This document shows, piece after piece, positions 46,601 through 52,600 of a stretch of 64,000 bases of DNA. Made by a program: the position numbers. Location of the stretch: the NCBI RefSeq assembly GCF_018977255.1, contig NW_024704752.1, positions 806,001 through 870,000 on the forward strand. The letters are read 5' to 3'. Source of the stretch: Callorhinchus milii (lineage: Eukaryota). Numbering within the stretch: position 1 is the stretch's first letter; each line of letters starts with the position of its first letter.

Positions 46601-49600
46601 GGTCCACAGGAAGCGACAACCGATCTGCTGTTTTGACTGCACAGAATGTGCTGATGGTGAGGTCAGTAACACCACAGGTATGGTTTAATCTAGCACATTA
46701 TTTTCAAGTTCGTCTTTCCGAACGTTTGCCCAGATAGCTTAAAGTTTGTACAGTACTGACGTTCACCAATTATATTATTTCTCTCAGATGCGTTGGATTG
46801 CATCAAGTGCCCTTTGGAATATTGGACCAATCAGAGGAAAGATAAATGCATACAAAAAGAAATTGAGTTTCTTTCCTTTGAAGAGATGCTGGGAATTGTA
46901 CTAGTTACGATTGGATTGGTAGGGATCGGCGTAACGTTAACAACAACAGTTATCTTCTATCAGCACAGAGATACCCCTATTGTTAAGGCGAACAATTCTG
47001 AGTTGAGCTTCCTTCTTCTGTTTGCATTGACTCTGTGTTTTTTGTGCTCTCTCACATTTATTGGTGAACCCTCAATGTGGTCTTGCAAGCTTCGCCGCGT
47101 GTCTTTCGGTATTGCTTTTGTTTTGTGCATCTCCTGTATTTTGGGAAAAACAATCCTGGTTCTAATGGCCTTTAAGGCAACGCTTCCCAATAATAACATG
47201 ATGAAATGGTTTGGACCCACACAGCAACGATTAAGTGTTTTCCTTCTCACACTTATTCAGAGTTTAATCTGCGCTCTATGGTTAACATTCTCACCCCCTT
47301 CCCCTGTAAAAAACATCAAGTACTACAGGGACATTATTATTTTAGAATGTGATGTTGGATCTATAACAGCATTTTACTGTGTATCGACCTACATTGGTCT
47401 TTTGTCTGCTGTGTGTTTTATTCTTGCATTCCTAGCCAGGAATCTGCCAGATCATTTTAATGAGGCTAAGTGTATAACTTTCAGCATGCTTATTTTTTGC
47501 ACAGTTTGGATGGCTTTCATTCCAGCTTATGTCAGTTCGCCTGGGAGATATACTGTGGCTGTAGAAGTGTTTGCTATTTTGGCATCCAGCTTCGGTTTGC
47601 TTCTCTGCATTTTTGTTCCAAAATGTCGCATAATCTTGCTGAAACCAGAAAACAATACAAGACAGTATATCATGTCCAAAGATCCTTCAAAGAAGCTTTA
47701 ATCAATTCATTATATGAGAAACACATAATCATTTTTGTAACAAGTGTCTTGTTTGGAAATGCATAATCATGTGATTTTATTCACTAGTTAAATACTTTTA
47801 ATTCTTTTAATATGGTTTCATATGTATTATTCACATGATTCGGGTATTATGAATGCTACCTTTCAATAAAGGCAATACAAGCATGTTAATTTCAAAATCT
47901 ATTCAAGTATTGATTGTAAAGAGAGAACATGCTATATGGCACTGGAAATGTGACAAAAAAGCATTTGTTAGAGAAATACAATGTAGTTTCATGCATTTTA
48001 AAGAATCATTTTCAATTGGACAATAAAGCTTCCAAGAACATCTATTCCACAGAAACAAGGTAGAGCTTATGAAGATCTAACCTTACTATCCTGAAGGTTT
48101 GGATCGCGCCACTGAAGCTGATTTTTCAACAGCTTTTATTACCTATTGCTTCTTTCTAAAAAAAATTGTGACAATTTAATATTTCTATGTCAACATATGT
48201 TCAAAATATTATGTATATTCCTTTCCCCTGCTCCCTCTATTGCAATAAACTGATTGTGTGTAATTGTGGAGTCCTGTAACTTACTGGTTAGAACACTCGT
48301 CTTGCAAGAGAGGACCTGGGTTCGATTCCGGGGCCAGCAAAATTAAGCAAGTTTGCTTACCCCACACCCTCTGTTTATCCAGCAGTAAGTTAGTTGTTTG
48401 GTTGATGGCCTTTCCGGGGGAAATATCCCTTCAAAAATACATTTCAAAATTATAATTTGGCCACTCAATCCACGACTGTTTGTGTGGGGCACTACTGTGT
48501 GCAATTGGATGCCGTGTTTCGCCCACAAAATATACAATCAATTCACTTTACAGAATATTCTTCAGTTATCAGGAGAGGCTGGAGAAGCTGGGATTATTCT
48601 CCTTGGAGCAGAGAAGGTTAAGAAGCGACTTAATAGAAGTTTTTTAAAATCATGAGGGGATTCGATAGAGTGAACAACTGGAAACTATTCCCACTGGCGG
48701 GTCGGTCGGTTACCCGAGGACACTGATTTAAAATAGTTGATAAAGGAAACAGAGGCGAGGTGAGGAGCATTTTTTCGCACAGCGAGTTGTTGGGATCTGG
48801 AATGCATTGCCTGATAACAACTTTTAAGAGAGAAGTGGATAATTATTTGGGGAAGACAAGTTTGCAGGGCTATGGGGGAGAGCGGGGGAGTGGGGTTGAT
48901 TTGGATAGCTCTTTTCAAAGAGCCAACACAGACACGATGGGCCGAATGGCCTCCTTCTGTGCTGTATAATTCTATGATTCTATCATTCTATGATTCTGTG
49001 AAGCACTTTGAGACGTTTCGATGTAATAAGGTGCGATGTCAACTGCAATTATTATTAATTAATTGAGAAAAGTTGTCCAAAAAGTGTACTTGAAAGAAAA
49101 ATAACAAAACAATAATTGGTGTGTAGAACAACTAACCATCACAATCCCAAATGGTATAAAGGATAATTTAAAAAGTTGCTTCCATGATTATGCAGAGGGG
49201 AAATCCCTGATGAGATACACTAAGATACTTGGCCACAATCGTTACAGCTGACAGTTAATTTTCCAGAAGCACATAGGAAATTATATTCTACTGGGATTTT
49301 AAATAATCTCCAAATTACCTTCCACTGAATTGCATCAAAGGCGGCAATTCCCAGAAAGCCCCGCTGTAGTACAATATAAAACACACATACGGTGACGCAT
49401 ATATTGGACAATTGAACTTGTCTGCTCGGATAACTGCAACTTCTGATTGACGTAAATAGTAAATGTATGTGGGAAATATGTTTTTCTTTTTCCTGTTAGA
49501 ATTGCTCAGACTTGAGGCTGGATGGGGAAGCGGTGAACATAGTTGTAAACTTCAAGGGAAGTTCGATTTACCTGAACTGTCAAAGGACGGAGACATCATT

Positions 49601-52600
49601 CTGGGGGGACTTTTTAACTTGCACATGGACAGGGTTGAGAATGTGCATTCCTTTACTGTCCGGCCAAAAGCAGAACAGTGCAAACGGTCAGTTGACATAT
49701 ATTTTTCCGTACAATTTTAATTAATTGAATGGTTTTGATGAAATCACACATTTTGCCATTTACAGTATATAGTTTGGGACATGACATGTGAATGTGACTG
49801 CCAGGCAGGGGAGAAGGCGAACTGGATGGACCTTGGTCTTCTTTTGTCTCACAGTTTTTATGTTGTAAGACCCAGGGAAATAAAATATTAAGTTATGATG
49901 AGTAAATCATACGAGATTTTGAAATATACTTTTAAAATGTATAAATGTAAACATTGTAGTTATGAATTCATCACCCAATATACATTGATTGATTGTATTA
50001 GTAAATGATTCTGAAAATTAAGTAATTCTTCAAGACCTTTAAGCATTTTGAGACTAACTTAAATATAATAATAATAAATAATAATCCTTGCATTTGATAT
50101 AGCACTTTTCACGTCTTTTAGATGTCTCAAAGCACTTCACAGAATATACTGTCAAGTGAATTGACTGCATATTATGTGGACGAAACGCGTTTAGTTGACA
50201 GCGTTGGCAGTTCACCACCTTGATCATACATAATACGGAAGATAAAAATAATGCCATTTCCAATCTGTTATTGTAATAGGTTAGTCAGATCCGCACCCCA
50301 TAAATGTGTCTATGGTTGTTGAGGTTCCCTTCTGTTGGCTACACGGTGCAAGACTTGAAATTAAATCAGTCAGATTTCCATTCCAGATCCACAGATGTAA
50401 GAAACTGAAGGTTGCACCAGTCTTAATATAACAGATGGAAAGACGCAATTGATTAACCTTTGAGAACCCAAATCCAATGTGTAATTGCAATGAGGTAAAT
50501 CACTGAACTACCAATTCACCAACCTGTGTCTATGCATCAATGGTATGTTGTCAAATTGAAATAACTTTGGTAGTTATACAACCCTTGTAATGTCATTGAT
50601 GTTATGTCTTAGAAACCATTTTCATAAGATAACCAAAAGAGGTGATCTCATTCCATGATGCTAATAATTTGTGTAACTCCAAAGGTTTGATTTCAGAGGC
50701 TTTCGCTTGGCTCAGACCATGATTTTTGCCATCGAAGAAATCAACAGAAATCACCTCCTGTTGCCAAATGTCACACTGGGATTCAGGATCCACGATGATT
50801 GTGCGTCATCCAAGATTGTGACAAAAGCGGCCTTAGCTCTTGTTAATGGGCAGGAAACCGGTTTGGGTTATTCTTGCACAGGACAATCTAATGTCATCGG
50901 GATCGTTGGGACACAAGGATCCTCTGAGTCTATTGCAGTAGCAAGAGTTATTGGTCCTTTTCAAGTTCCGATGGTAATGTTGTATTTCTATTGTAATAAA
51001 TAATACATAATTATCTGCACATTTAATGCAATATTGTGGAGTCCTGTAGTTCAGTGGTTAGAGCGCTCGCTTTGCAAGTGAGAGACCTGAGTTCAATCCC
51101 AGGCAGAGGGCGAAACCTTGGGCAAGTGTCCTTACTCCACACAGAGCCTAATAATAATCCCTCCCAAACCAAAACCAATAATAAATTGGTAATTTTCAAT
51201 CCACAGCTGTTTGTGGGACACTGCTGTGCGCAATTGGCTGCTGCGTTCGCCCACAAATATACAGTCAATTCACTTTACAGTATGTTCTGTGAAGCGCTTT
51301 GGGATGTCCTCCTGACGTGAAAAGCGCTATATTAAATGCAAGGATTATTATTATTATTATTATTATAATATAGTCTATTGCAAATAACATGTTTGCTTAA
51401 ATAAAATATTGATATTATGAGACATTGGGATGATGTGAAGCTGCTATATCAAATGCAAGGATTATTGTTATTATTATTAGATGAATTTATCTAGTAAAAC
51501 CATGAAGGTGCTTTGCCAATTCCTAATGATTATGATCACTGCACACTGAGCGCATTTTCTTTCATTATAATCAGATTTACTTTTTCTGCACTTTACCTTT
51601 ATTTTGTTGCTGATAGGTCAGTTACTTTTCCACCTGTACGTGTCTCAGCAGCATTGAAGAATACCCTACCTTCTTCAGAACGATACCAAGCGATTCCCAT
51701 CAGTCTAAACTTTTAGCGCAACTTGTTCAGATGTTTGGATGGACGTGGATTGGGACAGTGAGCAGCAACAATGATTACGGTCGATTTGGGATACAAGCAT
51801 TTTTGGAAGCTGTTCAGAAGCTGGGAGTTTGCATCGCCTACTCGGAGTCCTTCTACAGAACCGACTCTGTAGAAAAAATTGCCAAAGTTGTAGACACAAT
51901 TAAAAAAGGGTCGACAAAGGTTGTGGTGGCACTTGTTTCTCCGGGAGACATGCTATTTTTGCTAAAGGAAGTTGTGCGCCAAAATGTGAGCGACATACAG
52001 TGGCTAGGAAGTGAAGCCTGGGTTACAGCAGAACTCCTCCCTTCATGGCAAAGTACCAGGTTTCTAGTTGGGACCATTGGGCCTGCAATCCCTCGGTTCC
52101 ACATATCAGGACTAAGAGAATATCTTCTTAAAGTTCACCCTTCTTTGTTTCCTGACAATATTTTAGTCTACGAATTTTGGGAAACAATGTTCAAATGTAT
52201 TCTAAGGGAAGACCACTCGAAAACACGGTCAAACACTGAAGCTCCAATCCATAGATGTACAACAAACGAAAATCTAGAAGAAAAAAGCAGCACATATTCA
52301 GATATAACATTGGACGGTAGTTCTTACAATGTATATAAAGCTGTCTACGTGTATGCTCATGCACTTCATAACATGTTGCTGTGCAGCGAAGGCAAAGAAC
52401 AAAAGAATAATAAAACATGTGCAGACATTACAAATTTAAAACGATGGCAGGTAAGCTATCTGTTACCAAAATCTAACATGTGAGATTTACTGAGTGAAAT
52501 GTGACAGAAATAATAATAATCCTTGCATTTGATGTAGCGCCTTATCACGTAACTGAAATGTCTTAAAGCACTTCACAGAATATATTGAAAAGTGTATATT

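What the first reader, a model, noticed from the sequence alone, without database searches (positions are those of the whole stretch)
49133..50982. Gene 6 carries the gene 2/3 promoter, exon 1 and exon 2, with identity dropping at exon borders
Seen: identity to genes 2/3 stops right after the exon 1 donor (CGG then TCAGTT versus TGAGTG). It resumes about 40 nt before exon 2 and stops a few nt into intron 2. Introns 1 and 2 keep only diverged homology (50470-50545 vs 10553-10630; 51000-51545 vs 25210-25430). Diagnostic promoter variants are split: genes 3+6 share GGTGACGCAT, while genes 2+6 share CACTAAGATAC. Inference: old paralogy refreshed by recent conversion across 27-40 kb, skipping genes 4 and 5. 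Three receptors with one promoter may be co-expressed.
Basis: partly seen in the sequence, partly recalled or inferred. Interest (0 to 1): 0.7.

Follow-up and report, generated by a model that had tools for sequence, protein, structure and literature searches.

The report
Shared promoter-exon cassette among shark V2Rs
In an elephant-shark cluster of smell-receptor genes, one otherwise very different receptor carries almost the same promoter and first two exons as two neighbours, most likely because DNA copying between gene copies (gene conversion) keeps refreshing those pieces; this is a clear example of a known process.

Summary
The window holds seven tandem V2R/OlfC-type genes and matches Callorhinchus milii. 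Gene 6 shares two near-identical islands with genes 2 and 3. Island 1 is 49133-49689 (345 nt upstream of the ATG, exon 1 and the donor). Island 2 is 50643-50983 (42 nt of intron 1, exon 2 and 10 nt of intron 2).

Against gene 3 the islands differ at 12 of 895 positions, and synonymous divergence is 3 differences over 111.5 sites. The adjacent alignable intron differs at 44 of 171 positions (K 0.32). Exons 3 and 6 have saturated dS (1.2-1.7). Purifying selection alone is therefore excluded.

There are two layers. An older event gave gene 6 a g2/3-type 5' module running from the promoter to the end of intron 2; introns 3-5 show no such homology. Recent interlocus conversion then refreshed only the promoter/exon 1 and exon 2.

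Genes 2 and 3 show the same island pattern against each other. A fourth gene outside the window (P0076) carries the module too. Cross-species exon trees favour genes 2/3 as native owners, but this is not proven (AU p 0.20). The co-expression idea is untested and does not follow from a shared promoter. Overall this is a new example of a known phenomenon.

The parts
49133..49477 (+). Island 1a: putative promoter and 5' UTR of gene 6 (345 nt upstream of ATG 49478). It has a TATAAAA at 49375 and in-frame ATGs at 49463 and 49478.
   Evidence: 98.6% identical to g3 22504-22848 (5 of 345 differ) and 96.5% to g2. Only g2 and g3 match it within the window (coverage 2). TATA-like site. Promoter function is inferred, not shown.
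49478..49686 (+). Island 1b: gene 6 coding exon 1 (signal peptide and start of the ligand-binding domain), ending in phase 2; donor GT at 49687-49688.
   Evidence: 4 of 209 nt differ from g3 and 3 of 209 from g2. Present in public models P0017 and P0220. Identity ends within 2-10 nt after the donor.
49690..50424 (+). Gene 6 intron 1, 5' part: about 735 nt with no detectable homology to intron 1 of any paralog. It includes a SINE-like repeat fragment at 50051-50189.
   Evidence: Sensitive blastn gives only repeat hits or E>0.01. Coverage 0 outside the repeat.
50425..50642 (+). Gene 6 intron 1, 3' part: old, diverged homology specific to g2/g3.
   Evidence: 73-74% identity, K 0.32-0.34, with a 34-nt indel. 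No counterpart in g1, g4, g5 or g7.
50643..50983 (+). Island 2: last 42 nt of intron 1, exon 2 (50685-50973, 289 nt, ANF_receptor domain) and the first 10 nt of intron 2.
   Evidence: Exon 2 differs from g3 at 2 of 289 nt (both synonymous) and from g2 at 5 of 289. The 42-nt flank has 1 mismatch and the 10-nt flank has 0. Pfam ANF_receptor E 1.8e-15.
50984..51616 (+). Gene 6 intron 2: diverged colinear homology to g2/g3 intron 2, running up to the exon 3 acceptor. It is interrupted by a SINE-like insertion at about 51031-51369.
   Evidence: E 7.7e-14 to g2, 5.7e-9 to g3, none to other paralogs apart from repeats. Alignment. Repeat hits.
51617..54831 (+). Gene 6 body: exons 3-6 (exon 3 51617-52450; exon 4 about 52795-53061; exon 5 about 53707-53835; exon 6 about 53920-54831). 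It is an old, separate V2R lineage.
   Evidence: 57/58/74/68% amino-acid identity to g3 in exons 3/4/5/6. dS 1.23 (exon 3) and 1.70 (exon 6). Introns 3-5 have no g2/g3 homology. Pfam ANF_receptor, NCD3G and full-length 7tm_3. Canonical splice sites.
22504..23066 (+). Gene 3 copy of island 1. It is the closest partner of gene 6 and is bounded upstream by a g3-specific 1.26-kb insertion (21241-22503).
   Evidence: The insertion is shown by g2 8671-8736 matching g3 21175-21240 at 80.6%.
24331..24671 (+). Gene 3 copy of island 2 (exon 2 is 24373-24661). A g3-specific insertion follows from about 24672.
8737..9295 (+). Gene 2 copy of island 1. The g2-g3 identity continues to 9415.
10692..11032 (+). 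Gene 2 copy of island 2 (exon 2 is 10734-11022). The g2-g3 high identity starts earlier, at 10544.

Best explanation
Gene 6 is a chimeric V2R whose 5' module has been refreshed by recent gene conversion. The module is the putative promoter, exon 1, intron 1, exon 2 and intron 2, and it is of the gene 2/3 type. The body (exons 3-6) belongs to a separate, old V2R lineage.

The history has two layers.
1. An older recombination, either an unequal crossover or a long conversion, ended at or just before exon 3. It put a g2/3-type module in front of the gene 6 body. The introns of the module have since diverged to K of about 0.3.
2. Much more recently (K 0.01-0.04), non-reciprocal interlocus gene conversion copied two short tracts between gene 6 and gene 3 (and/or gene 2), 27-40 kb away. 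The tracts are promoter plus exon 1 (about 557 nt) and exon 2 with short flanks (about 341 nt).

Why the tracts stop near exon borders (inferred). Conversion needs near-identical pairing. Only the selectively constrained promoter and exons stayed similar enough. Indels and repeat insertions in the introns act as barriers: the g3-specific insertion ends exactly at the 5' border, and unrelated sequence starts right after gene 6's exon 1 donor. Regions that keep being converted stay convertible, and the rest escape.

Genes 2 and 3 are kept alike in the same two islands by the same process.

Shown: the divergence strata, the tract limits, the incongruent trees and the intact gene structure. Inferred: the conversion mechanism, its direction (g2/3-type to gene 6, about 70% likely), the promoter function, and any effect on receptor choice.
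For: - Tracts and borders.
- Three divergence strata for g3 vs g6. Islands: 12 of 895 nt differ, pS 0.027 (3 of 111.5 synonymous sites), promoter K 0.015. Module intron: 44 of 171 differ, K 0.32. Exons 3 and 6: dS 1.23 and 1.70, like unrelated subfamilies (g5-g3 1.3-2.3). Fisher p 5e-8 (synonymous vs intron) and 7e-27 (islands vs intron).
- Old homology is limited to the module. Introns 1 (3' part) and 2 match only g2/g3. Introns 3-5 and the 3' flank match nothing but repeats.
- Incongruence. g6 exon 2 is identical in protein to g3, yet holding g6 with g2/g3/P0076 in exon 3 is rejected (p-AU 9e-16).
- The same islands occur between g2 and g3: 97%, 78%, 96.7%, 79.7% along the 5' region. Those intron matches lie in single-copy sequence.
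- The 5' border coincides with the end of a g3-specific insertion, and g2-g3 old homology (76-93%) continues upstream of it.
- Direction. The elasmobranch clade EX is sister to the module in exon 2 (SH-aLRT 88) and sister to the g1/g2/g3 subfamily in exon 3 (96). Holding module + subfamily A + EX together in exon 2 even raises the likelihood. g3 has the fewest private changes (3, against 10 for g6 and 15 for g2).
- The gene is intact and publicly modelled with this structure.
- Precedents: conversion proposed to homogenise mouse V1R promoters (PMC1955453, passages) and detected among catfish OlfC genes (PMC6588630, passages).
Against: - Direction is not established. Holding g6+EX as one clade in exon 3 costs only 12 lnL units (p-AU 0.20). 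The gene 6 exon 3 sits on a long branch (0.51). The trees are 'quick' trees with SH-aLRT only, and the careful exon 2 search did not finish.
- Two separate tracts that each cover one exon need either two events or one patchy event. Nothing here tells these apart.
- The first about 735 nt of gene 6 intron 1 match nothing, so the history of that piece is unknown.
- No genome of a second holocephalan and no reads were available. The classic test (paralogs more alike than orthologs) and an assembly check could not be made.
- Promoter activity and the transcription start are inferred only from position and a TATA-like site.
- The hint of several events with different partners rests on 25 variable events (p 0.017).
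Confidence: 0.8

Rival explanations
1. The conversion is real but runs the other way. The module is native to the gene 6 lineage and was donated to the ancestor of genes 2, 3 and P0076, whose relatives (g1, P0073, P0080, P0085, P0089) keep the subfamily's original 5' end.
For: Within the g1/g2/g3 subfamily, 6 of the 9 gene products compared (g1/P0077, P0073, P0080, P0085, P0089, P0090) have other exon 2 types that are only 60-66% identical to the module. The free exon 2 tree puts those types outside module+EX. g6+EX in exon 3 is not rejected (p-AU 0.20).
Against: In exon 3, EX is sister to the subfamily that holds g2/g3 (SH-aLRT 96), not to gene 6. EX proteins are 64-71% identical to that subfamily in exon 3 and 56% to gene 6. 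In exon 2, holding module + other subfamily types + EX together is as good as or better than the free tree. Three subfamily members carry the module against one gene 6.
Confidence: 0.2
2. There was no recent conversion. One chimeric duplication or unequal crossover gave gene 6 its 5' end, and purifying selection alone kept the promoter and exons 1-2 alike while the introns decayed.
For: The old layer (module-wide g2/3-specific intron homology ending at exon 3) fits a single recombination event. Exons are under constraint (dN below dS elsewhere).
Against: Synonymous sites are about ten times less diverged than the adjacent intron (pS 0.027 vs K 0.32; p 5e-8). 345 nt of non-coding upstream sequence is 98.6% identical. 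42 nt of intron next to exon 2 shows 1 mismatch. The same jump from about 80% to 97% occurs between g2 and g3 exactly at an insertion border.
Confidence: 0.04
3. Assembly artefact: reads from genes 2/3 were wrongly placed into the gene 6 locus.
For: Tandem paralog arrays are prone to collapse and chimeric joins. No reads could be examined here.
Against: The three copies are not identical and each has private changes (g2 15, g3 3, g6 10 events over 895 nt). The islands are embedded in colinear old homology that a mis-join would not create. Three public protein models join this exon 2 to the gene 6 exon 3, including two versions of one RefSeq record. That the two versions come from different assemblies is my recollection only.
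Confidence: 0.03
4. cDNA-mediated (retro-) conversion: a spliced or partly spliced transcript of gene 2/3 served as template, which would explain tract ends at exon borders.
For: The 3' end of island 1 lies within 2-10 nt of the exon 1 donor, and island 2 ends 10 nt after exon 2.
Against: Island 1 includes 345 nt upstream of the ATG, of which about 240 nt lie upstream of the TATA-like site. Island 2 includes 42 nt of true intron; reading the printed sequence, an in-frame TAA lies four codons upstream of the acceptor. Intron 1 is retained in gene 6.
Confidence: 0.02

Closest known systems
Homogenised promoter 'peaks' of mouse V1R subfamilies (Stewart and Lane 2007, PMC1955453; passages read)
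   Same: Blocks of more than 500 bp around the start of vomeronasal receptor genes are much more alike between paralogs than the surrounding non-coding DNA. The authors suggest gene conversion, possibly favoured so that paralogs compete equally for choice.
   Different: That case concerns V1Rs (another receptor family with a single coding exon) in a mammal, within subfamilies. Here the block includes two coding exons of a six-exon V2R in a chimaera, and it sits on gene bodies that differ at dS above 1.
Gene conversion among OlfC (V2R-like) genes of channel catfish, detected with GENECONV (PMC6588630; passages read; its Supplementary Data 4 not seen)
   Same: Same receptor family, tandem paralogs, and conversion invoked to explain paralogs that are too similar.
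   Different: That study worked on coding alignments only and used conversion as a caveat for expansion counts. In the passages read it does not describe promoter or intron strata, tract borders, or a chimeric gene.
Region-restricted conversion in clustered protocadherin genes (recalled from Noonan et al. 2004; not read here)
   Same: Tandem arrays of neuronal 'choice' genes in which conversion homogenises some parts of each gene while the specificity-determining part stays diverse. Here exon 6 is 97-99% identical across the subfamily while exon 3 is 78-96%.
   Different: A different gene family and architecture. The comparison rests on memory.
Hybrid genes made by unequal crossing-over in tandem arrays (textbook cases such as red/green opsin or Lepore-type globin hybrids; recalled)
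   Same: The old layer, a 5' part of one paralog joined to the body of another with one junction before exon 3.
   Different: A simple hybrid predicts equal similarity of exons and introns across the transferred part. Here introns are at K 0.32 and exons at 0.01-0.03, so a second, later process is needed.

Membership tests
V2R / OlfC (family C GPCR, CaSR-like) receptor gene | Venus-flytrap ligand-binding domain (ANF_receptor), cysteine-rich NCD3G linker and 7tm_3 domain | tested here: met
   Exon-by-exon Pfam scan of gene 6: ANF_receptor in exons 2-4 (E 1.8e-15, 2e-45, 9e-5), NCD3G in exon 5 (4e-17), and full-length 7tm_3 in exon 6 (2.4e-82).
V2R / OlfC (family C GPCR, CaSR-like) receptor gene | Closest relatives are annotated V2R/OlfC/CaSR-like proteins; the gene lies in a tandem cluster | tested here: met
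   1819 hits at E<=1e-20, named CaSR-like, V2R or OlfC. Seven tandem copies in the window.
V2R / OlfC (family C GPCR, CaSR-like) receptor gene | Expression in olfactory sensory neurons | not testable with these tools
   No expression data for Callorhinchus milii were available.
Interlocus (ectopic) gene conversion / concerted evolution | A tract of near-identity between paralogs with sharply more diverged but still homologous flanks | tested here: met
   12 of 895 differences in the islands against 44 of 171 in the adjacent homologous intron.
Interlocus (ectopic) gene conversion / concerted evolution | Synonymous and non-coding divergence in the tract far below neutral divergence outside it | tested here: met
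   pS 0.027 and promoter K 0.015, against intron K 0.32 and exon 3/6 dS 1.2-1.7.
Interlocus (ectopic) gene conversion / concerted evolution | Phylogenetic incongruence between the tract and the rest of the gene | tested here: met
   In the exon 2 tree g6 is identical to g3. In exon 3 that grouping is rejected, p-AU 9e-16.
Interlocus (ectopic) gene conversion / concerted evolution | Paralogs more alike than orthologs in a closely related species | not testable with these tools
Interlocus (ectopic) gene conversion / concerted evolution | Non-reciprocal transfer with an identifiable donor | tested here: inconclusive
   The trees favour g2/3 as native owner and g3 has the fewest private changes. 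The reverse direction is not rejected.
Simple hybrid gene from one unequal crossover | Uniform similarity (exons and introns alike) over the whole transferred segment, with one junction | tested here: not met
   Identity within the module alternates: 98%, unalignable, 73%, 99%, then about 65%. A single junction before exon 3 fits only the old layer.
cDNA-mediated conversion | Tract confined to transcribed, spliced sequence, with introns and promoter excluded | tested here: not met
   345 nt upstream of the ATG and 42 nt of intron 1 are inside the tracts.

The most novel reading that the evidence does not exclude
The promoter/exon 1/exon 2 block may be a selected, portable 'choice cassette'. 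On this reading, conversion is not just tolerated there but favoured, so that receptors with very different ligand-binding bodies (gene 6, genes 2/3, and the P0076 gene) share one regulatory identity and one N-terminal segment. They would then compete equally for singular receptor choice or be assigned to the same neuron class or zone. Meanwhile exon 3, the main ligand-binding exon, is kept diverse, and the 7TM exon is homogenised separately across the subfamily. That would make V2R evolution in this chimaera modular, with regulation, binding pocket and signalling domain exchanged as separate units.
Probability: 0.15. Interest if true: 0.65.

Novelty: new member of a known kind. Interest (0 to 1): 0.4.

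Why it matters
This locus shows, within one 64-kb stretch, that elephant-shark V2R genes are mosaics whose parts have different histories. Three consequences follow.

1. Whole-protein trees of this family can mislead about gene ages and 'species-specific expansions'. Published counts for elephant shark report subclades of up to 12 genes (PMC6368271, passages read). Here exon 6 is 97-99% identical in protein across seven subfamily members, while exon 3 is 78-96% and exon 2 is 60-77% between exon 2 types.

2. It extends promoter homogenisation, so far proposed for mammalian V1Rs, to V2Rs of a cartilaginous fish. That hints that shared promoters among chemoreceptor paralogs may be an old and general feature of receptor-choice systems.

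3. It offers a natural experiment: three receptors with the same 5' cassette but two very different bodies. This could show how far a proximal promoter decides which neurons express a V2R.

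Tried and rejected
- Reverse direction (gene 6 as native owner). I took this seriously after seeing that P0080 and g1 have another N-terminus. The per-exon trees then favoured g2/3 as owner, but the AU test did not exclude the reverse. It is kept as a rival.
- cDNA-mediated conversion. Rejected because promoter and intron sequence lie inside the tracts.
- Purifying selection only. Rejected by the dS-versus-intron test.
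- Shared SINE copies as the source of the 'intron homology'. Rejected because the 78-80% g2-g3 and 73% g6 intron matches lie in sequence with window coverage 1-2.
- Residual homology in the first about 735 nt of gene 6 intron 1, and upstream of 49133. None found.
- Pfam naming of the ORFs in the g3 insertions and other repeat-like ORFs: 0 of 5 got a family. These insertions are therefore described only by position and repeat content.
- The first dS run for exon 2 used a frame one base off and was redone.
- The careful exon 2 tree did not finish, so quick trees were used.
- Literature. Searches 'elephant shark / V2R / gene conversion', 'vomeronasal / gene conversion / promoter / concerted evolution', 'V2R + gene conversion' (27 papers) and 'OlfC + gene conversion' (3 papers) listed no paper on conversion or chimeric V2Rs in cartilaginous fish. 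I saw only listings, plus passages of four papers.
- Not used: structure prediction, complex prediction, Rfam, atlas and the representative-protein search. None would bear on the question.

Full report
WHAT THE WINDOW IS

The 64-kb window has no N. It carries seven tandem, same-strand genes of the V2R/OlfC type, each with six coding exons. An exon-by-exon Pfam scan of gene 6 gives ANF_receptor (exons 2-4), NCD3G (exon 5) and a full-length 7tm_3 (exon 6).

A search with the exon 3 translation alone found a 100% match to a public model of Callorhinchus milii (elephant shark), P0017. The contig is therefore not human.

I built and searched no joined (spliced) model of my own. The one search that used a public full-length model scored only its exon 2 residues.

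THE OBSERVATION

It is confirmed.
- 49133-49695 matches gene 2 (8737-9295) at 96.3% and gene 3 (22504-23066) at 98.0%. Exon 3 matches them at 68%.
- Base-level alignments put the end of island 1 within 2-10 nt after the exon 1 donor. Island 2 starts 42 nt before the exon 2 acceptor and ends about 10 nt into intron 2.
- Exon 1 runs from ATG 49478 (or the in-frame ATG 49463) to 49686. Exon 2 is 50685-50973.
- Between the islands, the first about 735 nt of intron 1 match no paralog. The last about 220 nt before island 2, and intron 2, keep diverged homology that is specific to genes 2/3.

All figures are for gene 3 against gene 6.
- Exons 1+2 have 3 synonymous differences over 111.5 synonymous sites (pS 0.027) and 3 non-synonymous differences over 383.5 sites.
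- The 345 nt upstream of the ATG differ at 5 positions (K 0.015).
- The adjacent alignable intron differs at 44 of 171 positions (K 0.32).
- Fisher tests give p 5e-8 (synonymous vs intron) and 7e-27 (all island positions, 12 of 895, vs intron).

Purifying selection alone cannot explain the islands.

Exons 3 and 6 of gene 6 are at dS 1.23 and 1.70 from gene 3. That is as far as gene 5 is from either (1.3-2.3). Introns 3-5 and the 3' flank of gene 6 show no homology to genes 2/3.

So there are three strata: about 0.02 (islands), about 0.3 (module introns) and above 1.2 (body).

That implies two events of different age. An older one gave gene 6 a g2/3-type module from the promoter to the end of intron 2. 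The diverged homology runs up to the exon 3 acceptor. A recent one refreshed only the promoter/exon 1 and exon 2.

GENES 2 AND 3 ARE NOT A SIMPLE YOUNG PAIR

Along their 5' regions identity runs 97% (8732-9415), 78% (9863-10141), 96.7% (10544-11032) and 79.7% (11029-11277). It then runs 90% (11559-13824) and 99.2% (16750-19104). The low-identity pieces are single-copy sequence, not shared repeats.

Upstream of the common 5' border, gene 2's flank is still homologous to gene 3's at 76-93%. Gene 3 has a private 1.26-kb insertion (21241-22503) that ends exactly at the border.

The jump from about 80% to 97% therefore happens at a heterology, and gene 6's homology begins at the same base. This fits conversion tracts that stop where pairing with gene 3 becomes impossible.

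Gene 3 is also the least diverged copy. Odd-one-out events over 895 nt are g2 15, g3 3 and g6 10.

In exon 1, gene 2 equals gene 3 apart from one g3-private change, while gene 6 has 4 private changes. In island 2, gene 2 has 5 private changes and gene 6 has 2. This heterogeneity is modest (p 0.017).

DIRECTION AND WIDER CONTEXT

Per-exon matrices show that gene 6 groups with genes 2/3 only in exons 1-2 (98-99% nt). Gene 1 groups with them only in exons 3-6 (98% nt in exon 6, but 54-63% in exons 1-2).

Public C. milii proteins add a fourth carrier of the module. P0076 (XP_042195101.1) has exon 2 97% identical to the module, while its exon 3 is 96% identical to P0080, which has another exon 2 type.

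Exon 2 pairs are P0076 with g3, P0080 with P0089, and P0073 with g1. Exon 3 pairs are P0076 with P0080, and P0089 with P0073. The two sets differ, and exon 6 is 97-99% identical across all seven subfamily proteins compared. Mosaicism is therefore general in this subfamily.

For direction I built trees of 81-82 chondrichthyan sequences per exon. These were 75 public proteins cut at gene 6's exon borders plus the seven window genes. One short row, P0090, was dropped from exon 2.
- In exon 2 the module clade is sister to a 10-protein elasmobranch clade, EX (SH-aLRT 88; quick tree).
- In exon 3, EX (99) is sister (96) to the subfamily that holds genes 1-3. Gene 6 sits elsewhere on a long branch.
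- Holding gene 6 with genes 2/3/P0076 in exon 3 is rejected (p-AU 9e-16).
- Holding module + other subfamily exon 2 types + EX together in exon 2 gives a slightly better likelihood than the free tree.

This is the pattern expected if genes 2/3 own the module natively and gene 6 received it.

Against this, gene 6 + EX in exon 3 is not rejected (p-AU 0.20). I put the direction at about 70:30.

GENE INTEGRITY AND THE ASSEMBLY QUESTION

Gene 6 has canonical splice sites and consistent phases at the junctions checked.

Three public models join this exon 2 to gene 6's exon 3. XP_007907872.1 (P0220, 865 aa) contains exon 1, exon 2 and the whole of exon 3 exactly as in the window.

The copies differ by private changes and sit in colinear old homology. 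That argues against a mis-join. Reads could not be examined.

MECHANISM

The best reading is interlocus gene conversion over 27-40 kb, acting on a pre-existing chimeric gene.

The near-coincidence of tract ends with exon borders is best explained by the homology requirement of conversion (an inference). Constrained promoter and exon sequence stays similar enough to pair. Introns accumulate substitutions, indels and repeat insertions that block tracts, so the converted pieces stay convertible and the rest escape.

A cDNA template is excluded. The tracts include 345 nt upstream of the ATG and 42 nt of intron; reading the printed sequence, an in-frame TAA lies four codons before the acceptor.

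That the 345-nt block is a promoter is inferred from its position and a TATAAAA at 49375.

COMPARISON WITH WHAT IS KNOWN

- Conversion-homogenised promoter blocks of more than 500 bp were proposed for mouse V1R subfamilies, with the idea that paralogs then compete equally for choice (PMC1955453, passages read).
- Conversion among OlfC genes was detected in catfish with GENECONV (PMC6588630, passages read).
- Conversion is mentioned only as a caveat for V2R trees in PMC3590772 (passages read).
- The survey of elephant-shark and catshark V2Rs reports 34 elephant-shark genes with species-specific subclades of up to 12. The word 'conversion' does not occur in its main text (PMC6368271, find on main text).
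- Four searches listed nothing on conversion or chimeric V2Rs in cartilaginous fish. Supplements were not opened.

I file this as a new member of a known kind.

Going by the V1R precedent, a shared promoter would more plausibly mean the same choice probability or zone than the same cell.

WHAT STAYED UNCHECKED

The P0076 locus, the rest of the C. milii cluster and other holocephalans could therefore not be examined at the DNA level.
- No expression data were available.
- No sequencing reads were available.

Noticed in passing
window 6861-7802, 16773-17699, 28301-29227 (exon 6 of genes 1, 2, 3): The 7TM exon is almost identical among genes 1-3 (98.3-99.7% nt; dS 0.005 for g2-g3 and 0.025 for g1-g3), while their exon 3 is at dS 0.13 and 0.46. 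Across seven public subfamily proteins exon 6 is 97-99% identical in protein. This is a second, separate homogenised block at the 3' end of the genes.
   Followed up: partly
window 953-2058 vs 2620-7802 (gene 1): Gene 1 is a mosaic the other way round from gene 6. Its exons 1-2 are as far from genes 2/3 as any paralog (54-63% nt), while its exons 3-6 belong with them.
   Followed up: partly
window 12729-12730 and 26689-26690: The exon 3 donors of genes 2 and 3 read CAG|GCAAGA (GC, not GT). Genes 1, 4, 5, 6 and 7 have GT at the same junction. This is either a GC-AG intron or a weakened splice site shared by the two genes.
   Followed up: no
window 19101-19337: An isolated fragment between genes 2 and 3 encodes the last 79 residues of the 7TM exon, about 94% identical to the gene 3 tail. 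It is a remnant of a broken copy. The g2-g3 99.2% block ends right there, at 19104.
   Followed up: no
window 21241-22503 and about 24672-25172 (gene 3): Two gene 3-specific insertions sit exactly at the outer edges of island 1 (5' side) and island 2 (3' side). The first contains a copy of the window's commonest SINE-like repeat (21829-22153, 90.6% to 51034-51361). Their ORFs get no Pfam family.
   Followed up: partly
window, many sites (e.g. 51031-51369, 14908-15236, 1-313, 36898-37171): A tRNA-headed SINE-like repeat of about 330 nt occurs in more than 20 full or partial copies at 72-95% identity, often inside V2R introns. Its family was not identified; my impression that it is a cartilaginous-fish SINE is recollection only.
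   Followed up: no
public proteins P0073, P0076, P0080, P0089 (C. milii, not encoded in this window): The exon 2 pairings (P0076 with g3; P0080 with P0089; P0073 with g1) differ from the exon 3 pairings (P0076 with P0080; P0089 with P0073). This looks like repeated reassortment of 5' modules and bodies across the whole subfamily.
   Followed up: partly
public models P0017 and P0219 vs window 52420-52800: Public models of gene 6 disagree. P0017 uses an earlier exon 3 donor and a different exon 4 start. P0219 (XP_007907872.2) lacks exon 1. P0220 (XP_007907872.1) matches the canonical junction KRWQ|LLDF seen in the window.
   Followed up: yes
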